The position numbers were made by a program, and so were the translations under genes. From Oligoflexia bacterium (GTDB taxonomy: Bacteria; Bdellovibrionota; UBA1018), in NCBI GenBank assembly GCA_014376785.1, contig JACMQW010000018.1, positions 9,536 to 73,535 of the forward strand: a stretch of 64,000 nucleotides of DNA, in the 5' to 3' direction. A model generated the notes under the pieces. It ran no database searches and was not told the origin of the DNA. It worked only from the letters and a program-made list of their open reading frames with translations. Shown one piece after another: positions 7,977 to 29,692 of this stretch (within the stretch, counting starts at the first letter, position 1; the number at the start of each line of letters is the position of its first letter).

Positions 7977-8014
7977 GGAAGGGTTGGATGGGTTAATCCC
8001 ATCCAACCCTTTCC
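7977..8014 (+). terminator. Perfect 16-bp hairpin downstream of fliC1
   Basis: GGAAGGGTTGGATGGG-TTAATC-CCCATCCAACCCTTCC is followed by TCGTTTGT, a weak U-tract. It sits in a convergent intergenic region. Confidence 0.45.
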
Positions 8015-8266
8015 TCGTTTGTGGAGGTAAAGAAAAACTCTGGGGAGGGCTCTAACGGACTCCTTCAGTCACTTCCTGTGACTGACAGTCCTTTAGGACT
8101 GGCGAACCTTCTCGGGCATCATGCCCTCGAAGTATCCTGCGCCTTTTCGCGCATCGTGCGCGGCGGCGGTCGCACCCGAAGGATTTTTAAATGTTTCTCT
8201 AGAAACGAGGAACGTCCGGTGGCGTTGGGGACGGGGTGCGACTCATGACTCGCGTTTCCGCTCGTC

Positions 8267-9154
8267 TCAAGGACAGTGTAAAAATCCCTGAACGTTTTCC
8301 AAAATTATCGAACAGCCTCTCAAAAACTTCATACCTAACATTCCTTCGGCAGGCATGTCCTGAGAAGTCGGCTGAAGCCTCACATCCATTTTAAACTTTC
8401 TTCCCAGTAGCGTTGTTTCTATTTGAGTGAGTAAGCGAACTGACGATGGCTTCCCTGAAATGCCTCCAACTTTCTCGTGGGAGGTAATGGACTTGTTGAG
8501 AAGTTTTTTTCCCGCTCGCGACTGATTCCCAATCGCCGCATTGTCTGCACCTGAATCAACGAGGAATCTCACCGGCAGGTTGGCGATCTTTCCATCCACA
8601 ACGTAAAGGATCGTGTGGGTAACCTCGGGACTGATGGAGTGAATAGAAGTGAGTGGCGTGTAATCCTTTAGTGATGCGTGGGAAATGTCGCTGATGATTA
8701 ACGAAGGAACTTTCCCGAGATTGAGAGTGGCTGCCCCGCTTTTGGTGATCAGACTCTGGGGCGATAAGATTCCAGAAATGCCATAAACGCGGAATGAGCT
8801 AGGCAGGGAGGTGATCCAGACCTCCTTATTCTTGTAAACGAGAGTTTCGCCATTCGACGATTTCAGGGCCAGGTCGATCTTGGCCAGTGGGGCCTGGTCA
8901 TTAGCTCCGGTAGTGGCGGCCATCGTATTTTGAACGATATTGGATTCCGCCGCGAACCAGCTCGCGACAACGCTAAGCGAAGCTCCAGTGTCTACAAGGA
9001 AGATTCCCTTTTTGCCGTTGACGATAATTTCTACTGTCGGAGAGGCAAAACCTGCCTGATCGAGCAATGGATCAAAACTTAGCGCAAACTCAGATGCCCA
9101 AGCAGACGTACAACACAGGGTGAGGATAATACCGAATGGAAGAGTTGAGTCCAT
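8267..9154 (-). CDS. Secreted pepsin/retropepsin-like aspartic protease (two-lobed)
   Basis: Signal peptide MDSTLPFGIILTLCCTSAWA. Two catalytic motifs, FLVDTGASLS and FLVDSGADNA, are present. 295 aa. Confidence 0.6.
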   Translation of the reverse strand: MDSTLPFGIILTLCCTSAWASEFALSFDPLLDQAGFASPTVEIIVNGKKGIFLVDTGASLSVVASWFAAESNIVQNTMAATTGANDQAPLAKIDLALKSSNGETLVYKNKEVWITSLPSSFRVYGISGILSPQSLITKSGAATLNLGKVPSLIISDISHASLKDYTPLTSIHSISPEVTHTILYVVDGKIANLPVRFLVDSGADNAAIGNQSRAGKKLLNKSITSHEKVGGISGKPSSVRLLTQIETTLLGRKFKMDVRLQPTSQDMPAEGMLGMKFLRGCSIILENVQGFLHCP

Positions 9155-9217: not shown

Positions 9218-9843
9218 TTACGCCGGCAGAGTCATGATCAACGGATGCCCATCGGTAATGACCATCGTGTGTTCGTACTGTGCGGTGAGGTGACGTTTAT
9301 GCTTGGCAAGCGTCCAGCCACCGCCCGTATCGAAAACTTCTCGAGCTCCAGTGAAGAGAAAAGGTTCGATCGTGATGACCTGGTTCTTCTTCAGAACGCG
9401 TCGATCTTTCGGGTCGTAGTAACTCGGAATAAAACCAGGCGCTTCGTGCAGGGCTCTGCCCACTCCGTGGCTTCCGAGATTCTCGATCACGGTAAGCCGC
9501 TTCGGCGAGCTTCGGATTCGATGGCTCGACCGATTCCGCTGAGTAATGTTCCCGCGCGTGCTTCTTTCATCGCTAGCTTCAGCGCTCGCTGAGTCGCCAG
9601 GCAGAGGTTCTTTTTCAAATCAGATTCCGGTGGAATGACAAAAGACCCGCCGGTATCGGTAGCCGAGCGAGCCCCATAAAGTTCAAGAAACTTTTCGCCG
9701 ATCTGATCCAGCTCTCAAGTCGTCATCCCTGGTTCCAGCGATTTACCCATCAGCCGAAGGCAATTCGCAACGATGCGGCCGATTTTCTGAGGTGCGATTA
9801 AATCTTCTTCGGTCTCGATTGAAATGGAAAGACTGTAGCACAT
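9218..9843 (-). pseudogene. map: Methionine aminopeptidase type I (map) disrupted by an in-frame TGA and a frameshift
   Basis: From the ATG at 9841-9843 the gene reads MCYSLSISIETEEDLIAPQKIGRIVANCLRLMGKSLEPGMTT, then TGA at 9715-9717, then ELDQIGEKFLELYGARSATDTGGSF...ARRSG. The frame then shifts near 9491-9505 into LTVIENLGSHGVGRALHEAP...TMVITDGHPLIMT. The TGA sits where MAP has the Gly of PGVTTGELD, consistent with a GGA to TGA change. Confidence 0.7.
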
Positions 9844-9953
9844 TGCGCGAGCTGACGCTTCCCCTTCGGGCCACGACCGCGATTCGCGCGAGACCAACCA
9901 CTTTAAATCGGACACTGATTCGGACACTGATGCTTGATCGAAGTATGATCCGA

Positions 9954-10080
9954 AGATTTAAGCCCTCTAAAATTGAGCGGCGAGAGTGAGTGGGGAAGGC
10001 GCAGGATGCGCTCTTCTAAGGGCCCCGCGGCAGGATGCCGATCGAACCTCTCGCCGCTCAATTTTAGAGGGCTTAAATCT
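9954..10080. repeat. 121-bp element with perfect 33-bp terminal inverted repeats (MITE-like or long-stem RNA structure)
   Basis: Left arm 9954-9986 is AGATTTAAGCCCTCTAAAATTGAGCGGCGAGAG. Right arm 10048-10080 is its exact reverse complement. The 61-bp spacer holds two mini-palindromes, GCGCAGGATGCGC and GGCAGGATGCC. A partial extra arm copy, CGGCCGCCGCTCAAGCTC, lies at 10090-10107. Confidence 0.6.
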
Positions 10081-10185
10081 CTGTACAATCGGCCGCCGCT
10101 CAAGCTCAACCCACGGAATTGAATTTAGTTTATCAACGAATTCAATGACTTGAAATCAATTGTTAAGCTTTATTCTTTTTATTAT

Positions 10186-10208
10186 GCAAAGCGTCAAAAT
10201 CCCGATAA
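10186..10208 (+). promoter_or_regulatory. Sigma-28-like -10 element (CCGATAA) upstream of fliC copy 2; the -35 match is poor
   Basis: CCCGATAA at 10201-10208 matches 7 of 8 positions of GCCGATAA. The upstream TAAA spacing does not fit. ACTATACCC at 10293-10301 is shared with the fliC1 upstream region (6838-6846). Confidence 0.2.
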
Positions 10209-10343
10209 GGTCTATGTAAGCCAAAGGAATCGAGCAATCGAGGCCAGAGGCAAACAACTACCTTGGAGGCTGTCCCGGGTAGAACAAACATACGAACCTC
10301 GGACTATACCCACCAGTAGCACGTCCGGCCGGGAGAACGTATC

Positions 10344-11171
10344 ATGGGCTTAAGAATTTCGACCAATATTGCGGCTATGTCTGCGGCGCGAGCACTTTCC
10401 TCATCCTCAAACGAACAAGCAAAGAGTTATCAACGACTCGCTTCGGGTAACCGAATCACGTCTGCCGGCGACGACGCCGCTGGATTGTCGATCAGTGAAA
10501 AACTGAAATCACAAATCCGTTCCCTCGGACAAGCCGAAAGGAACGCGAATGACGGAGTGTCCTTCACGCAAGTCGCAGAAGGCGGCTTGAATGAAATCGG
10601 TAACATGCTCGTCCGGATCCGTGAACTCGGAATCCAAGCCGCATCCGATACGATCGGGGACACGGAACGTGGATTCGTGGATAAAGAAGTGCAGCAACTG
10701 AAGGGTGAAATTAATCGGATCGCAAACGTCACCACCTTTAACGGCACTCCGTTATTAAATGGTGAAGGCAAAAAGGATCTGAGCTTTCAGGTCGGCGCTT
10801 CCAAGGCGGACGCCATCGCGTTCAATCCAGAGAATTACAACGCGAGAACCGATAAACTGGGGATCGACGGAATCGACTACACGAGTTCGAGCGGTGCCCG
10901 AGATTCACTCGATAAAGTTGATGACGCGATTTCGAAAGTTTCTGGCTCACGGGCTGATCTCGGGGCTCAACAAAACAAGCTGCAAGCAACCATTTCGAAC
11001 TTAGCCATCCAAAAGGAGAATTATTCGGCCGCGAACAGTCGGATTCGGGATACCGATGTCGCTTCGGAATCCTCGAAACTAGTCAGCGGAAATATTCTGC
11101 AGCAAGCCGGCGTGTCCGTCTTGAGTCAGGCGAACATGGCTCCGCAGGCGGCCCTTAAGCTTCTGGGATAA
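10344..11171 (+). CDS. fliC: Flagellin (copy 2)
   Basis: MGLRISTNIAAMSAARALSSSS...GDDAAGLSISEKLKSQIRSLGQAERNANDG is the N-terminal segment and LSQANMAPQAALKLLG is the C-terminus. GGGAGAA RBS. It is paralogous to 7060-7893. Confidence 0.9.
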   Translation: MGLRISTNIAAMSAARALSSSSNEQAKSYQRLASGNRITSAGDDAAGLSISEKLKSQIRSLGQAERNANDGVSFTQVAEGGLNEIGNMLVRIRELGIQAASDTIGDTERGFVDKEVQQLKGEINRIANVTTFNGTPLLNGEGKKDLSFQVGASKADAIAFNPENYNARTDKLGIDGIDYTSSSGARDSLDKVDDAISKVSGSRADLGAQQNKLQATISNLAIQKENYSAANSRIRDTDVASESSKLVSGNILQQAGVSVLSQANMAPQAALKLLG

Positions 11172-12890: not shown

Positions 12891-13997
12891 ATGGTGAAGC
12901 ATCCTGCCGCGATCCTGCTCGGAACGCTCCTATTTTTAGGAACCGTTTTCGCTGTGATCCGGGGGAATCTATTTCGTGGCGACGCATCAGGAAGTGGCCC
13001 CGCCCCCGCGAGCACGAACATAACGAAGTCTGCCGGAAAAGATTCTAACCATCCCGGTTCGGCTGAGCGGGTACGACGGTACTGTGCAAATCCCTACGAG
13101 GTGACTTGCGAGAATCCAACGCGGACGACGACTGATCCTACGGGGAGAGTCGATCTTCAGATTTCTGGAGAGGTTCGCGCGCTACGAGTTCTGAGAAAAA
13201 TCCTGACTTCTCACGCCGATTGGAATTCGAAACAGGTCGAAGACCAACTGGTAACGGAGATTTACACCGAGAAACGGGTAAAACGAATCGAGAGTGCTTA
13301 CCGGTGGGTGAAAGCGCAGCTCCACACGGTTATCGAGCGCCAAGATGCCTCTGTTTTTTCGGTCGAAGAGAAGCAAGCCATCCTCTCCCGTGTCGACCGT
13401 GTCGAATTGAATTTACCGCCTCCTGCTTCGAATTATGCAGATGCAGCAGATGTCTTTACGAAAAACTCTATTTATTATGAGCGGACCGAGACTGGGCAGA
13501 TGCGGCTTCGGGTGGGCGGTGCCTACCTTTTAAATATTTCTTCTTGGTATAACCTCGTCTTCTCACTTGCTCATGAATTCTCGCACGCCATTGATCCCTG
13601 CGAAATGGCTGCGGACGCCGTGGTGCCGACTGCATACCGAGAGCTCATTTCTTGTTTCGTCCGAACCGGGTGGGTCGACGGTGCCCGAAACACCTGTGGC
13701 GATAACGAGCAGGTATCCGAAGTCTTCGCCGACTGGATGGCTGCGGAAGTTGTGAGTTCTTCACTCGGCAATTCGGAAAAAGACTATTCGGGCGAGCAAC
13801 GAGTGCAGGCGGCGGTGAATTCCGTGCGAGACCTTTGTGAAGAAGCGGTGAGTTTGGACGTGCTCAGTACCCAAAATCATCAGACTCCGGCGATCCGTAT
13901 TGGAAAAATGTTCGGCAGAAATCCTCTCGTTCGAAAATCGATGGGATGCGAAAATACTCCCGCGGGCGACTATTGTGCTTTTAGTCCAAGGAAATGA
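12891..13997 (+). CDS. Secreted zinc metallopeptidase (HEXXH ... ExxAD, M13-like C-terminal arrangement)
   Basis: Signal peptide MVKHPAAILLGTLLFLGTVFAVIRG. HEFSH is an HEXXH motif, and a downstream EVFADWMA resembles the M13 ExxADxGG third-ligand motif. 368 aa. Confidence 0.6.
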   Translation: MVKHPAAILLGTLLFLGTVFAVIRGNLFRGDASGSGPAPASTNITKSAGKDSNHPGSAERVRRYCANPYEVTCENPTRTTTDPTGRVDLQISGEVRALRVLRKILTSHADWNSKQVEDQLVTEIYTEKRVKRIESAYRWVKAQLHTVIERQDASVFSVEEKQAILSRVDRVELNLPPPASNYADAADVFTKNSIYYERTETGQMRLRVGGAYLLNISSWYNLVFSLAHEFSHAIDPCEMAADAVVPTAYRELISCFVRTGWVDGARNTCGDNEQVSEVFADWMAAEVVSSSLGNSEKDYSGEQRVQAAVNSVRDLCEEAVSLDVLSTQNHQTPAIRIGKMFGRNPLVRKSMGCENTPAGDYCAFSPRK

Positions 13998-18194: not shown

Positions 18195-18356
18195 AGCGGA
18201 GAACTTGATCATCCCTCCCGGACCGCGTATTCGAAGGGAAACACATTCTGAGTCGAAGGAAGTGGGTGAAAATCCCACACTGTCCCGCAACGGTGATGAG
18301 ACGACGCTCTCTCAGTCCGGTCTACGACAAAGAATTCATCCCGAGGAGGAATCGCT

Positions 18357-18869: not shown

Positions 18870-19501
18870 AAACCGAAAATCAAGCACTGCATTGGCGATA
18901 TGCCACCAAAGGATTCAACCCAGAAAAGAAAGTGCCCGAAGAAAAATTAAAAGAGATTCTAGAGACGGCTCGCATGGCTCCGACCTCTTATGGCCTTCAG
19001 CCATTCCACGTGACCGTGGTTAAAGATCAGGCCTTAAGAGAGAAACTCAAGCCCTTCTCCTGGAACCAGGCGCAAATTACGGATTGTTCACACCTTGTTG
19101 TTTTCCAATCGCGAATCAGAATCGATGAAAAACTCGTGAATGACTACATCGAGCTCATTTCGAAAACGCGTGGCGTTCCAGTGGCAACCCTCGAAGGATT
19201 CAGAGGCATGATGCTTTCGACTGCGGCAAAGGAACCAGGTTCAGCTACTTCTCAGGAATGGGCAAAGCGCCAAGCCTACATCGCGATGGGGTTTCTCCTT
19301 CATTCGGCGGCGATGCACGAAGTAGATGCTTGCCCGATAGAAGGCATCGATGGGGCGGAATACGATCGCCTCCTGGGTGCGGATGCAAAAGGACTCCAGA
19401 CCGTCGTAGTCGTCGCGCTCGGACACCGAGCTGAAAGTGATGCTTATCAAAACTTGAAGAAGGTTCGCCAACCAGTCGAACAGTTTTTCTCGTTCGTTTA
19501 A
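18866..19501 (+). CDS. NAD(P)H nitroreductase family protein
   Basis: ARMAPTSYGLQPFHVTVVKDQALREKL is typical of nitroreductases. It overlaps the upstream stop by 4 bp. Confidence 0.8.
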   Translation: MKTENQALHWRYATKGFNPEKKVPEEKLKEILETARMAPTSYGLQPFHVTVVKDQALREKLKPFSWNQAQITDCSHLVVFQSRIRIDEKLVNDYIELISKTRGVPVATLEGFRGMMLSTAAKEPGSATSQEWAKRQAYIAMGFLLHSAAMHEVDACPIEGIDGAEYDRLLGADAKGLQTVVVVALGHRAESDAYQNLKKVRQPVEQFFSFV

Positions 19502-26226: not shown

Positions 26227-26341
26227 AGTTGGAGCCCGGGATTGGCCATCACTCCCTCAAACCTGCGCGCCCTACCGTGCCAGATCCCGGTCAAAAAATC
26301 GCGTCCAGTCCCGCGCAAGACTTCGCTCATCCATCGTCCCG

Positions 26342-26443
26342 CTTTCAAAAGCCTAAAAAAGAGTTCCGCAGCGACCGAGCAGTTGACCGCAGAGAACCAT
26401 TCCCGAACGCGAGGACTATTTGATTTTTTAGGCTTTTGAAAGG
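26342..26443. repeat. Inverted-repeat element (20-bp arms, 62-bp spacer) immediately 3' of tRNA-Leu
   Basis: Left arm 26342-26361 is GCTTTCAAAAGCCTAAAAAA (with an outer G/C mismatch) and right arm 26424-26443 is TTTTTTAGGCTTTTGAAAGG. The architecture parallels the 9954-10080 element. Confidence 0.5.
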
Positions 26444-26464
26444 GGGATGATGGATGAAGGAAAA

Positions 26465-26549
26465 TGGTGCCCGGGACTGGACTCGAACCAGCATGCTGTT
26501 AGGCGCTCGCCCCTGAAACGAGTGTGTCTACCAATTCCACCACCCGGGC
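26465..26549 (-). tRNA. tRNA-Leu (anticodon CAG), class II with long variable arm, CCA encoded
   Basis: The reverse complement is GCCCGGG-TG-GTGGAATTGGTAGACAC-A-CTCGT-TTCAGGG-GCGAG-CGCCTAACAGCAT-GCTGGTTCGAGTCCAGT-CCCGGGC-A-CCA. It has a perfect 7-bp acceptor stem, the anticodon loop has U33 with anticodon CAG and G37, and a TTCGA T-loop. Confidence 0.85.
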
Positions 26550-27628: not shown

Positions 27629-28397
27629 GTGGGCGGGGAAAATCACGAAGGTTACTCACATGCGCTGATGAAAGTATGGAGCGGAAAACGCAGATTAGAA
27701 AATGCGCCCGCCCGAAGCTCCCTCGCTCGTCTCCGAAAATGGATCTCCTACCTCTTCTTCAAAGATCATTTCGAGAAACTCGTAAAGAAAGCGGACGCTG
27801 TTAGATCGACCTATTTAGGGCTTCGAATCTACGCCATCGACGGGCAGATGTTGACGCTTCCCAAATCAAAAGAAATCACGCAGGCGGGCTTCACGGGCGT
27901 GAGCAAGGATCTGAGATTTACGAACCGAGCGCGAGAGCCTGGTGATTTACGACCGACTGTACTTTGGAGTGAGGCTCGTGAAGGCGCACTACCGCCGCGG
28001 TAATCACTTTTTATTTCGCCTGAAAAAGAACGCGAATAGGGAGATTGCGGCGTTCTTTCAAGACCCGGCCCGGCCGACGACCGCCACGTTTATGCTCGGA
28101 GAAAAGTTTGAGGTGAATCTCGTACGCATCTTTGACGCGAAAAACAGAAGGCACGACGTCTTCGCAACGAGCTTGCCGATCGATTTCTTGAAGCCGCATT
28201 TAATTGCGAAACTCTACCGGCTCCGCTGGGAAGTGGAGACCTCGTTTCTAGAGCTCACGGGCATCACGAAGGCAGAACAGTGGCATTCGAAATCCGTGAA
28301 CGGCATCCTGCAGGAGCTCTACGCGAAGTTTTGGCTCATTAACTACACGAAGCTTCAGATTCACGCTCAGACCCAGAAACCGAGGGGTTCTATATGA
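27629..28397 (+). mobile_element. IS4-family transposase remnant (frameshifted, 5'-truncated)
   Basis: Two overlapping ORFs lie in different frames (27629-28003 and 27942-28397). The second carries the IS4 signature LYRLRWEVETSFLELTG. Combined they give ~255 aa against ~400 aa for an intact transposase. Confidence 0.65.
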
Positions 28398-28744: not shown

Positions 28745-29692
28745 ATGAAAATGATGAAACAAGCAGGATTTGGAATTTTGAGCGCACTCTCACTCGTTGG
28801 TTGTGGCGGCGGAGGTGGGGGCGCGGCTCCTGCTCAGCCCGCAGCAGCGATGAATCCCACCGGAAATTATTACCAGACGCAAGGATCGCAACCCTACAAT
28901 TGCCAATCGGGCATGATCCAACTCCGAAACGCTTTCGGACAAACCCAATGTTTCAATACGGTGAATCTCGCTGAAGCCTGCATCCAGGCCCGCGGCATTT
29001 TCCAAGGAAACCTCTGCCGACGCGAACGAGTGATTCCATCCCGGAATGCGGTTTTTACGGTTCGGAACGTCCAGCCTTATTTCCCAGTCACCATTCCAGG
29101 AATTTCGGCTAGCCTCTATGCCGGAGAATCGCTGAAGCTTTCCGGATGTCTTGATAATGGGTATGGCGATGCAGAATGGAGCGCGCAACTTCTTCAAGGA
29201 GGAGTCGCAGTGGGTTCCGCATCGAGCCAATCCATGGTGATGAACGGTCAAAGCTCTGACAATTTTACGATTGCAGCAACGAGCTCAGGTTTTGCCGGCG
29301 GCGTAGGATACGCAAACGGTGGATATCAAACTCCTGGCTATCAGAACACCGGTTACCCAAACACAGGATATCAAAATACGGGATACCCAAACACAGGATA
29401 TCAAAATACGGGATACCCAAACACAGGATATCAAAACACCGGTTACCAGAATCAAGCCCCCTACAATAATGGGGCCTATACCAACACTCCCTATCCGAAT
29501 ACGGGCGCTTATCCGAATGCCGGAGTTTACCCGAATGGCCAAACGCCTTACGGAAACACGATGGCGATGATTCCGCAGAGCTACGATTTGCAGATTATGT
29601 TTGAGTACCGTGAGCCTAAAGTGAAGATCGCGCTGAAAATGTCGGCAGTCACCTGCGAAGACGGTCACGGAAACAACTATGCTTGCCCTTAA
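28745..29692 (+). CDS. Lipoprotein with G-Y-(Q/P)-N-T pentapeptide tandem repeats
   Basis: ATG at 28745 with a GGAGAA RBS. MKMMKQAGFGILSALSLVGCGGGGGG carries the lipobox LVGC. The repeat block reads GYQTPGYQNTGYPNTGYQNTGYPNTGYQNTGYPNTGYQNTGYQNQ. Confidence 0.65.
   Translation: MKMMKQAGFGILSALSLVGCGGGGGGAAPAQPAAAMNPTGNYYQTQGSQPYNCQSGMIQLRNAFGQTQCFNTVNLAEACIQARGIFQGNLCRRERVIPSRNAVFTVRNVQPYFPVTIPGISASLYAGESLKLSGCLDNGYGDAEWSAQLLQGGVAVGSASSQSMVMNGQSSDNFTIAATSSGFAGGVGYANGGYQTPGYQNTGYPNTGYQNTGYPNTGYQNTGYPNTGYQNTGYQNQAPYNNGAYTNTPYPNTGAYPNAGVYPNGQTPYGNTMAMIPQSYDLQIMFEYREPKVKIALKMSAVTCEDGHGNNYACP
29321..29455 (+). repeat. 9x tandem 15-nt coding repeat (period 15; two perfect 30-nt copies at 29366-29395 and 29396-29425)
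   Basis: GGATATCAAAATACGGGATACCCAAACACA is duplicated exactly. The adjacent units are degenerate. Confidence 0.8.

What the first reader, a model, noticed from the sequence alone, without database searches (positions are those of the whole stretch)
9954..10107. 121-bp element with perfect 33-bp terminal inverted repeats sits between the dead map gene and fliC2
The arms at 9954-9986 and 10048-10080 are exact reverse complements (AGATTTAAGCCCTCTAAAATTGAGCGGCGAGAG). The 61-bp spacer carries two mini-hairpins built on the same CAGGATGC core (GCGCAGGATGCGC and GGCAGGATGCC), and a partial third arm copy (CGGCCGCCGCTCAAGCTC) follows at 10090-10107. No ORF explains this. It could be a MITE or non-autonomous transposon, a structured sRNA or attenuator in the fliC2 leader, or a recombination site. 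A second element of the same shape (20-bp arms, 62-bp spacer, arm core AAGCC..TAAAA) lies at 26342-26443 beside tRNA-Leu, which hints at a small element family.
Basis: seen in the sequence. Interest (0 to 1): 0.65.

Follow-up and report, generated by a model that had tools for sequence, protein, structure and literature searches.

The report
Conserved foldback element beside flagellin gene
The perfect 127-bp hairpin upstream of the second flagellin gene is real, and it belongs to a small, apparently undescribed family of structured foldback elements that in related bacteria sit directly after the tRNA-Leu gene; its conserved tip carries two hairpins shaped like binding sites for CsrA, a known regulator of flagellin synthesis.

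Summary
Perfect 33-nt inverted arms (9954-9986 and 10048-10080) enclose a 61-nt head, so the element is 127 bp, not 121. An independent assembly of the same sequencing run breaks exactly k-1 bases inside the right arm.

It is not in the fliC2 leader, because the conserved sigma-28-type fliC2 promoter lies downstream of it.

It is not an orphan. A covariance model built only from an element next to tRNA-Leu(CAG) in a different species finds this element as the only significant hit in 148 kb (59 bits, E 8e-13). The two share an arm block (CCCYCTAAAATT) and two C-AGGAN-G hairpins whose loops are 29 nt apart. Seventeen base pairs are kept through compensatory changes.

Long inverted repeats that include the tRNA 3' end occur at the orthologous tRNA-Leu site in three species.

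A third relative, el3 (8011-8212), and this element lie in opposite orientation. They bracket a 2.1-kb block (aspartic protease plus a decayed map gene) that is absent from the same spacer in three relatives.

Best reading: a dispersed, structure-defined foldback element, MITE-like in behaviour. Its head probably acts as RNA and may bind CsrA. Mobility and CsrA binding are inferred, not shown.

The parts
9954..9986 (+). el1 left arm, 33 nt. Positions 9962-9975 (GCCCTCTAAAATTG) form the block shared with the L013 element.
9987..10047 (+). el1 head (61 nt). The sense strand is +.
9995..10016 (+). Head hairpin 1: GAAG-GCGC / AGGAT loop (10003-10007) / GCGC-t-CTTC. It is kept in L013 as GCGAGTCGC-AGGAC-GCGACTCGC.
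10028..10040 (+). Head hairpin 2: CGGC / AGGAT loop (10032-10036) / GCCG. In L013 it is CGCC-AGGAA-GGCG. The loop-to-loop distance is 29 nt in both.
10048..10080 (+). el1 right arm, the exact reverse complement of the left arm. The Logan contig begins at 10051.
10094..10103 (+). 10-nt direct repeat of the inner right arm (CGCCGCTCAA). Marginal significance.
8011..8212 (-). el3, a family member with a long-type head (sense strand is -). In Logan contig L008 the arms are 38 nt at 97% complementarity (equivalent to window 8011-8048 and about 8173-8212) with a 124-nt head. In the window only the outer 16-18 nt of the arms pair (8009-8026 and 8197-8214). Positions 8057-8143 are 80% identical to the head of the L016 tRNA-Leu element.
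8065..8085 (-). el3 terminal head hairpin: TCAGTCAC-AGGAA-GTGACTGA.
8267..9154 (-). Two-domain retropepsin-like aspartic protease gene. It is cargo of the 2.1-kb block.
9218..9843 (-). Decayed methionine aminopeptidase (map) gene. It is cargo of the 2.1-kb block.
10182..10208 (+). Conserved sigma-28-type fliC2 promoter (TTAT-N15-CCCGATAA), downstream of el1.
   Evidence: consensus from general knowledge
26299..26486 (+). el2, the long inverted repeat at the 3' flank of tRNA-Leu(CAG). The arms are 62-63 nt at about 84%, with a 63-nt spacer. The outer arm is the tRNA 3' end. This is the positional counterpart of the L013 and L016 elements. Its head has no GGA hairpins.

Best explanation
el1 is one copy of a previously undescribed family of foldback elements in Oligoflexia/Bdellovibrionales-type bacteria. 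Each copy has a long stem whose inner 33-38 bp are perfectly or almost perfectly paired. The stem carries a 55-125-nt head built of small hairpins, and two or more of these hairpins display A(N)GGA(N) in the loop on one strand.

Shown:
- el1 is a sequence-and-structure homologue of the element immediately 3' of tRNA-Leu(CAG) in a different species.
- Related long inverted repeats occupy that same site in three species.
- A second relative in this genome, el3, and el1 lie in opposite orientation at the two ends of a 2.1-kb block (protease plus dead map). Three relatives lack this block in the same flagellin spacer.

Inferred:
- The family is dispersed DNA that reaches new sites as a non-autonomous, structure-defined element. 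It is MITE-like in behaviour and is mobilised in trans by an unknown enzyme.
- el1 arrived with, or helped bring, the 2.1-kb block.
- Its perfect arms reflect recent origin or DNA-level homogenisation.
- The conserved part, the head, works as a single strand on the GGA strand, most likely as RNA read through from neighbouring transcription. The perfect duplex would be a natural RNase III substrate that releases the head.

Speculative:
- The two C-AGGAN-G hairpins 29 nt apart form a dual binding site for one CsrA dimer. The element beside fliC2 would then tie into the control of flagellin by CsrA.
For: - Reality of the repeat.
- Homology: covariance model R2, built from the L013 element alone, hits el1 at 59.4 bits and E 8.4e-13, over its full length and on the + strand only. 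It is the only significant hit in 148 kb on both strands. el2, which has the same hairpin geometry, is not hit.
- Covariation between el1 and L013: 44 of 44 pairs are formed in both, and 17 are changed on both sides. With the partners slid by 1-3 columns, only 1-4 are.
- Both elements have two C-AGGAN-G hairpins with loops 29 nt apart.
- Long-head type: L016 19403-19488 matches window 8057-8143 at 80% over 87 nt (E 5e-18). Ten pairs across the element, most of them in three head hairpins, are kept through compensatory changes.
- tRNA-Leu-linked inverted repeats occur in three species: window el2, L013 (72-nt arms, inner 33 nt perfect) and L016 (72-nt arms, inner 36 nt perfect).
- Insertion polarity: L009, L010 and L013 (and the L015-L019 strains) have fliC1 and fliC2 about 411-418 nt apart, with no protease, map, el1 or el3 between them.
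- Strand asymmetry: consensus fold energy is -67.4 (sense) against -56.0 (antisense) for one pair of elements, and -58.8 against -52.2 for the other. The G-U pairs fall on the GGA strand.
- Census of C-A(N)GGAN-G hairpins: 6 in the window against 0.9 expected, and 3 of them lie in the 2.1-kb block. All 3 in L013 lie in its element. None occur in 55 kb of other relatives.
- Ongoing change: the two assemblies of this organism are identical over 6.3 kb but differ in about 30 nt of the el3 right arm. A strain of the L016 species has an island inserted at the tRNA 3' end and a deletion in the head.
- CsrA background: the consensus is GGA in a hairpin loop, and one dimer can bridge two sites 10-63 nt apart (PMC7652899). 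CsrA from Bdellovibrio represses flagellin translation in a reporter (PMC13443453).
Against: - Only five elements in four organisms are known, so copy number in this genome could not be measured.
- There is no target-site duplication at el1, no mobilising gene in the window and no parent IS. The window holds only a syntenic XerC/D-like gene and a decayed IS4 transposase with unrelated ends.
- The arms are not conserved between el1 and el3. This is the opposite of transposase-recognised terminal repeats.
- Exact arm 18-20-mers are absent from GTDB representative genomes, JGI metagenomes and IMG/VR.
- el2 has no GGA hairpins.
- No consistent promoter or terminator accompanies the elements.
- The el1 head alone folds no better than shuffled sequence.
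- The Rfam Rsm/Csr models do not match: RsmY scores 11 bits against a threshold of 57.
- The bracketing of the 2.1-kb block by el3 and el1 could come from two separate events.
- The covariation rests on pairs of sequences, and the structures were derived from those same sequences.
Confidence: 0.55

Rival explanations
1. A host-encoded regulatory RNA gene or module that is not mobile: a small CsrA-titrating or CsrA-responsive RNA. Its copies at tRNA-Leu and beside fliC2 would be maintained for function. The long stem would be a processing or stabilising stalk.
For: - The head hairpins and GGA loops are conserved through compensatory changes across species.
- The sense strand folds better than the antisense strand.
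- The loop spacing of 29 nt lies within the CsrA bridging range.
- The tRNA-Leu site is syntenic in three species.
- CsrA is active on flagellin in this phylum.
Against: - There is no consistent promoter or terminator.
- el1 and el3 are absent from three relatives and sit at the edges of an insertion.
- The stems are perfect Watson-Crick over 33-38 bp with essentially no G-U pairs. That looks like a DNA-level property rather than RNA selection.
- el2 at the conserved site has lost the GGA hairpins.
- There is no match to the Rfam Csr/Rsm families.
Confidence: 0.2
2. A classical MITE: a deletion derivative of a DDE-transposase insertion sequence, moved by cut-and-paste through its 33-bp terminal inverted repeats.
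For: - Its size (127 bp), perfect terminal repeats, intergenic position and absence from relatives all fit.
- A decayed IS4-family transposase lies elsewhere in the window.
Against: - No direct target duplication flanks the arms (sequence).
- The arms of el1, el3, L013 and L016 differ while the interiors are conserved, the reverse of what a MITE shows.
- No second copy of the arms occurs in 64 kb or in the public scans.
- The ends of the IS4 relic are unrelated.
Confidence: 0.08
3. An invertible DNA switch (inverton). A site-specific recombinase would flip the 61-bp head between the identical arms and so change expression of fliC2 or of the map side.
For: - The inverted repeats are perfect and lie upstream of a flagellin gene.
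- The head contains a weak sigma-28-like match facing fliC2: TAAG-N16-GCCGATCG at 10017-10044.
- Identical arms are what inversion systems maintain.
Against: - fliC2 has its own conserved promoter downstream.
- No invertase gene lies nearby. The only recombinase is a syntenic Xer-type gene 8 kb away that is also present in relatives lacking the element.
- A 61-bp segment is very short for synapsis.
- The head orientation relative to the tRNA is the same in L013 and L016.
- The homologous elements are not next to surface-structure genes.
Confidence: 0.07
4. A functionless local inverted duplication, from snap-back or template-switch repair, left at the junction of the 2.1-kb rearrangement.
For: - At tRNA-Leu, one arm is clearly native sequence (the tRNA 3' end) and the other is an inverted copy of it.
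- The arms differ from copy to copy, as target-derived sequence would.
Against: - A homologous head and inner arm exist in another species at another locus.
- The hairpins are kept through compensatory changes.
Confidence: 0.06
5. An assembly artefact, or an ordinary transcription terminator or attenuator.
For: The source is a metagenome-assembled genome, and the hairpin is strong.
Against: - An independent assembler breaks exactly at the repeat.
- No T-run follows the hairpin on either strand.
- The flanking genes are divergent, not convergent.
- The element lies upstream of the fliC2 promoter.
Confidence: 0.02

Closest known systems
Correia (CREE/NEMIS) elements of Neisseria and ERIC elements of enterobacteria: small palindromic, MITE-like repeats (from general knowledge)
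   Same: About 100-160 bp in size (ERIC is 127 bp). Long terminal inverted repeats fold into one hairpin. They are intergenic, show presence/absence differences between relatives, and have RNA-level consequences when transcribed (for Correia, RNase III cleavage).
   Different: Those families have conserved terminal repeats across hundreds of copies, and Correia has TA target duplications. Here the arms differ between copies, the interior is the conserved part, no target duplication is seen and only a few copies are known. There is no sequence similarity.
REPINs (paired inverted REP sequences mobilised by RAYT transposases) (from general knowledge)
   Same: Two inverted arms separated by about 60-110 bp form a long hairpin, and the hairpin is maintained by compensatory changes. 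They behave as non-autonomous single-strand hairpin elements.
   Different: REP arms are conserved within a genome and occur in tens to hundreds of copies alongside a RAYT gene. No such population or gene is seen in 64 kb.
Integron attC sites
   Same: The structure is conserved but the sequence is not. The arms are complementary within a site and differ between sites, the length varies (57-141 bp), and the sites lie at the edges of inserted gene blocks.
   Different: There are no AAC/GTT core triplets (el1 has AAG/CTT), no extrahelical bases (the arms are perfect) and no IntI integrase nearby.
CsrB/CsrC and RsmY/RsmZ sRNAs (CsrA/RsmA sponges)
   Same: Hairpins present A(N)GGA in the loop, closed by C-G, and the spacing between sites is compatible with one CsrA dimer (PMC7652899). 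There is a thematic link to flagellin control.
   Different: There are only 2-4 GGA motifs. The head is enclosed in a long perfect duplex. There is no own promoter or terminator and no match to the Rfam models. Binding is untested.
tRNA-3'-end integrating islands and their integrase-less remnants (CIME-type elements)
   Same: The L013 copy is flanked by a perfect 31-nt direct repeat of the tRNA-Leu 3' end. A strain of the L016 species carries an island at the same tRNA end.
   Different: The elements are only 0.2-0.3 kb and contain an additional inverted copy of the tRNA end. el1 itself has no tRNA-like flank and no direct repeats.

Membership tests
MITE (DDE-transposase derived) | Terminal inverted repeats | tested here: met
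   33 of 33 nt are complementary.
MITE (DDE-transposase derived) | Direct target-site duplication flanking the repeats | tested here: not met
   The flanks are ...GATCCGA| and |CTGTACA..., with no direct repeat. Only a TA or TTAA lying inside the arms could count, and that would need a 12-bp palindromic target.
MITE (DDE-transposase derived) | Several copies sharing the same terminal repeats, or a parent IS with those termini | tested here: inconclusive
   There are none in 64 kb, GTDB representative genomes, JGI metagenomes or IMG/VR. The rest of this genome could not be searched. The related copies have different arms.
Integron attC | R''/R' core boxes RYYYAAC ... GTTRRRY | tested here: not met
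   el1 has ATTTAAG ... CTTAAAT, so the conserved AAC/GTT triplets are AAG/CTT.
Integron attC | Imperfect hairpin with extrahelical bases, and an IntI integrase nearby | tested here: not met
   The arms are perfect. The only tyrosine recombinase is an XerC/D-type gene that is syntenic in relatives.
CsrB/Rsm-type CsrA-sponge sRNA | Repeated GGA motifs in hairpin loops | tested here: met
   el1 and L013 each have two C-AGGAN-G hairpins. L016 and el3 each have four GGA motifs on the sense strand.
CsrB/Rsm-type CsrA-sponge sRNA | Match to the curated family models | tested here: not met
   No Rfam hit for el1 at E up to 10. RsmY scores 11 bits against a gathering score of 57 on el3.
CsrB/Rsm-type CsrA-sponge sRNA | Independent transcription unit (promoter plus terminator) | tested here: inconclusive
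   One weak sigma-70-like site lies at 9921-9949, ending 5 nt before el1, but none is found at L013, L016 or el3. No U-tract terminator is present.
CsrB/Rsm-type CsrA-sponge sRNA | Binds and titrates CsrA | not testable with these tools
   This needs gel shifts or genetics.
REPIN/REP | Arms are a conserved REP sequence present many times in the genome, with a RAYT gene | tested here: not met
   There is no second copy of the arm in the window, the el1 and el3 arms are unrelated, and the window has no HUH/Y1 transposase.
Invertible promoter (inverton) | Both orientations present in the population | not testable with these tools
   This needs the reads of SRR9661224.
Invertible promoter (inverton) | Dedicated invertase nearby, and a promoter inside the invertible segment | tested here: not met
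   No invertase is present. There is only a weak sigma-28-like match in the head, and the real fliC2 promoter lies outside the element.
Intrinsic terminator / leader attenuator of fliC2 | Hairpin followed by a U-tract, located between promoter and gene | tested here: not met
   No T-run is present, and the element lies upstream of the conserved promoter.
The new foldback family defined here (L013-type) | Long stem with the CCCYCTAAAATT block, plus a head with two C-AGGAN-G hairpins 29 nt apart | tested here: met
   The model built from L013 alone scores el1 at 59.4 bits, E 8.4e-13. There are 17 compensatory pairs.

The most novel reading that the evidence does not exclude
This is a new class of element: a mobile foldback module whose conserved head is an RNA with a dual CsrA-binding site. 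It homes to the 3' flank of structured RNA ends (tRNA-Leu, terminators). Its arms are partly created by inverted duplication of the target, which would explain why the arms differ between copies, are perfect within a copy, and include the tRNA 3' end at the tRNA-Leu site. Copies could then rewire CsrA-dependent control, here next to a flagellin gene, and could carry genes between them as a composite unit.
Probability: 0.2. Interest if true: 0.8.

Novelty: new variant of a known kind. Interest (0 to 1): 0.6.

Why it matters
If the family is real and dispersed, it adds a structure-defined repeat to a phylum (Bdellovibrionota/Oligoflexia) where no such elements have been described. It also has an unusual signature: a conserved interior, and variable arms that pair perfectly within each copy.

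It gives a concrete hypothesis that can be tested at the bench. Does a 60-nt head with two C-AGGAN-G hairpins bind CsrA? CsrA is the regulator that gates flagellin translation in bacteria that use the FliW-CsrA system. No RNA antagonist of CsrA came up for this phylum in my literature searches.

It flags the tRNA-Leu(CAG)-rnr locus as a recombination hot spot that can be compared across genomes.

It also shows how a 2.1-kb gene block was placed between two tandem flagellin genes.

Tried and rejected
- Exact arm 18-20-mer scans of GTDB representative genomes, JGI metagenomes and IMG/VR gave only chance single hits inside unrelated genes. There they gave 0 hits, and 6 chance hits with no flanking repeats.
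- blastn against the plasmid and phage collections found nothing.
- Rfam found nothing at gathering thresholds, and nothing for el1 at E up to 10.
- Direct similarity between el1 and el2 was rejected (z 0.8 or less).
- Enrichment of the GCAGGATGC 9-mer: it occurs 6 times in the window, but the other four copies are in coding sequence and commoner 9-mers exist.
- Homology of the el1 arm, or of the third partial copy, to the sequence just after fliC1 in relatives: scores fall within the shuffled range.
- A 12-nt match between the el1 head and 8134-8145 was marginal on its own (p about 0.016). It was later explained as part of the shared head motif.
- Homologues of the aspartic protease: only one distant hit, which gave no context.
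- The dead map gene is not a recent duplicate. Its best hits are 65-69% identical and lie in varied contexts.
- Attempts to fetch the Logan contigs covering 9221-10051 and the window's right end failed, because the proteins are not on record.
- Covariance model R1 found no additional full copies in 246 kb of fetched DNA.
- Promoter scans gave no consistent promoter.
- The fliC2 leader does not present its GGA motifs in hairpin loops in the consensus fold.

Full report
**1. The observation**

The window contains a perfect 33-nt inverted repeat, 9954-9986 and 10048-10080, with 61 nt between the arms. The arm occurs nowhere else in the 64 kb, even with three mismatches allowed (0 expected). Apart from a coding tandem repeat, it is the only repeat of 31 nt or more in the window. 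Either strand folds about seven standard deviations better than shuffled sequence.

The repeat is not an artefact of the assembler. The source is an Oligoflexia MAG sequenced in run SRR9661224. An independent Logan assembly of that run has a contig starting at window 10051, exactly k-1 = 30 nt inside the right arm. A k=31 graph breaks at that point for a true inverted repeat.

The neighbours are as described. To the left is a dead methionine aminopeptidase gene on the minus strand, with one stop, one frameshift and about 41 codons lost. To the right is a 275-aa flagellin gene at 10344-11171. The "third arm copy" is only a 10-nt repeat.

**2. Where it sits**

Three relatives, from at least two lineages, share the gene order MeaB - flagellin (277 aa) - flagellin (275 aa) - TGase_elicitor protein - ... 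- metallophosphatase:
- L009 and L010
- L013, Bdellovibrionales GCA_018266355.1
- the L015-L019 strains of a further species

In all of them the two flagellin genes are about 411-418 nt apart. In the window the gap is 2,450 nt.

The alignments show where homology stops and resumes. It runs through the fliC1 terminator hairpin (about 7977-8013). It resumes around 10115-10155, at a CAATTGTTAAG box, a conserved sigma-28-type -10 element (CCGATAA, 10202-10208) and a strongly conserved leader.

Two conclusions follow.
- The element lies upstream of the fliC2 promoter, so it is not a leader attenuator.
- It lies at the right edge of a lineage-specific block of about 2.1 kb. The block holds a two-domain retropepsin-like protease (8267-9154, minus strand) and the dead map gene.

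The nearest map homologues are 65-69% identical and sit in unrelated contexts. The rest of the window is ordinary chromosome. Its only recombination genes are an XerC/D-type gene that is syntenic in relatives and a decayed IS4 transposase at 27629-28397.

**3. The "second element" and the tRNA-Leu site**

Its arms are 62-63 nt (26299-26360 and 26424-26486, about 84% complementary) with a 63-nt spacer. The outer 19-22 nt of the right arm are the 3' end of the tRNA, and the left arm carries an inverted pseudo-copy of it.

It has no sequence similarity to el1. However, el1 and el2 are by far the two strongest inverted repeats in the window, with 35 matched pairs each against 21 for the next.

The orthologous tRNA-Leu(CAG), just upstream of the RNase R gene, carries the same kind of structure in two other species.
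- L013 has 72-nt arms at 86% complementarity and a 55-nt head.
- L016 has 72-nt arms at 86% complementarity and a 125-nt head.

In both, the outer arm is the tRNA T-arm and acceptor end. Then comes a mismatched stretch of about 12 nt, and then a perfect inner duplex of 33 nt (L013) or 36 nt (L016).

L013 also has a perfect 31-nt direct repeat of the tRNA end plus 10 nt of trailer, at 13303-13333 and 13621-13651 (read). This resembles the att sites of an integrated element. The window retains a decayed counterpart (D5). A sister strain of L016 (L015) has an island inserted at the tRNA end and a deletion in the head. The site is therefore a recombination hot spot.

**4. el1 has homologues**

The L013 element and el1 share three features.
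- An arm block: CCCCCTAAAATT in L013 against CCCTCTAAAATT in el1.
- A first head hairpin with an AGGAY loop: GCGAGTCGC-AGGAC-GCGACTCGC against GAAGGCGC-AGGAT-GCGCtCTTC.
- A second hairpin with an AGGAW loop: CGCC-AGGAA-GGCG against CGGC-AGGAT-GCCG.

The two loops are 29 nt apart in both elements.

On their alignment all 44 predicted pairs form in both sequences, and 17 are changed on both sides. With the partners slid by one to three columns, only 1-4 are. The structure was derived from these same sequences, which is a caveat.

The cleanest test used a covariance model built from the L013 element alone. It finds el1 as the only significant hit in 148 kb searched on both strands: 59.4 bits, E 8.4e-13, full length, plus strand. 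It misses el2, which has the same hairpin geometry.

**5. A third relative inside the window**

The head of the L016 element (19403-19488) is 80% identical over 87 nt to window 8057-8143 on the minus strand (E 5e-18). Ten predicted pairs across the element, most of them in three head hairpins, are kept through compensatory changes.

In the Logan contig this element, el3, has 38-nt arms at 97% complementarity and a 124-nt head. It starts right after the fliC1 terminator.

The window and the Logan contig are identical over 6.3 kb. They differ in about 30 nt of the inner right arm of el3. This is either a polymorphism or cross-talk with a further copy elsewhere in the genome.

The 2.1-kb block is therefore bracketed by two family members in opposite orientation. 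el3 (long head, sense on the minus strand) lies at the left. el1 (short head, sense on the plus strand) lies at the right.

**6. What the family looks like**

- The arms differ between copies but are perfectly or nearly perfectly complementary within each copy. They contain essentially no G-U pairs.
- The heads are conserved between species through compensatory changes.
- GGA sits in hairpin loops on one strand.
- That strand gives the better consensus fold: -67.4 against -56.0, and -58.8 against -52.2 kcal/mol.
- Hairpins of the form C-A(N)GGAN-G with at least 4 bp of stem are over-represented and clustered in these elements.
- No Rfam family matches.
- No copy was found in the plasmid or phage collections or in IMG/VR.
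- No further full copy was found in 246 kb of fetched DNA.

**7. Interpretation**

Shown:
- The repeat is real.
- It belongs to a conserved structured family.
- It lies in derived, inserted DNA upstream of the fliC2 promoter.

Inferred:
- The family is dispersed, non-autonomous DNA, MITE-like in behaviour but not in anatomy. It has no target duplication and no conserved termini, and its conserved part is the interior.
- The head functions as a single strand on the GGA strand, most plausibly as RNA read through from neighbouring genes. el3 lies 3' of the protease gene on its strand. The tRNA-linked copies lie 3' of a plus-strand gene and converge on the tRNA.
- The perfect duplex would be an RNase III-type substrate.

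Speculative:
- The two C-AGGAN-G hairpins 29 nt apart form one dual site for a CsrA dimer. The CsrA consensus is GGA in a hairpin loop, and one dimer bridges sites 10-63 nt apart (PMC7652899). Bdellovibrio CsrA represses flagellin translation in a reporter (PMC13443453).

The rival readings are each disfavoured by specific results given in their entries. They are a purely host-encoded sRNA, a classical MITE, an inverton, a functionless inverted duplication, a terminator and an assembly artefact.

**8. Limits**

Only five elements in four organisms are known. As a result, copy number and distribution remain unknown. No transcript, protein-binding or read-level data are available.

Noticed in passing
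window 26230-26486; L013 13303-13654; L016 19141-19569: The 3' flank of tRNA-Leu(CAG), upstream of the RNase R gene, carries direct and inverted copies of the tRNA 3' end in three species. L013 has a perfect 31-nt direct repeat, and L016 has two inverted pseudo-copies 162 nt apart. On the tRNA strand of the window, the whole 188-nt hairpin is followed by TTTTTT, like a giant terminator that uses the tRNA's own 3' end as one arm.
   Followed up: partly
L015 versus L016, from position 19403: Two strains of one species differ at this locus. L015 has foreign DNA joined at TGGTGCC| of the tRNA-Leu 3' end (an island that includes an SLT-domain gene) and lacks part of the element's head and inner right arm.
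   Followed up: partly
window 8174-8204 versus L008 6324-6355: The MAG and the Logan assembly of the same run are identical for 6.3 kb but differ at about half the positions in 30 nt of the el3 right arm. The window version resembles the arm of the L016 element (GGATTTTTAAATG against GAATTTTTAAAATG).
   Followed up: partly
window 10210-10343 (also L009, L010, L013): The fliC2 leader is highly conserved across four genomes. It folds into a consensus structure of 40 pairs that closes next to the start codon (ATACG...CGTAT), so it may be a translational control element.
   Followed up: partly
window 9677-9704 (+): A good sigma-28-like match, TAAAGTTC-N12-GCCGATCT, lies antisense inside the dead map gene and points toward el1 and fliC2. 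The loose pattern occurs 5 times in the window against about 1 expected.
   Followed up: no
window 9908-9931: An exact tandem duplication of the 12-mer TCGGACACTGAT lies just upstream of el1. It overlaps the -35 box of a weak sigma-70-like site (9921-9949) whose predicted start falls at the first bases of the left arm.
   Followed up: no
window 18245-18335 (+): An AdoCbl (cobalamin) riboswitch lies upstream of a 4HBT thioesterase and a nitroreductase gene (Rfam 50.7 bits against a threshold of 50).
   Followed up: no
window 27629-28397 (+): A frameshifted IS4-family DDE transposase relic with no recognisable terminal repeats lies 1.2 kb from tRNA-Leu. The neighbouring 24-26 kb region has low G+C (0.45) and ORFs with no Pfam match, so it may be an island remnant.
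   Followed up: partly
window 29354-29436 (+): An exact tandem repeat with a 30-bp period lies inside a 321-aa lipoprotein-like gene. It encodes (N/P)TGYQ-type repeats.
   Followed up: no
L013 13387-13411 (-); L016 19236-19250 (-): Additional strong hairpins with CAGGATG loops lie on the tRNA strand, 45-125 nt outside the left arm of the tRNA-linked elements. GGA-loop hairpins therefore occur on both strands at these loci.
   Followed up: no
window 9221 (end of Logan contig L008): The independent assembly also breaks at the stop codon of the dead map gene, although no repeat within the window explains this. The cause may be a variant junction or a coverage gap.
   Followed up: no
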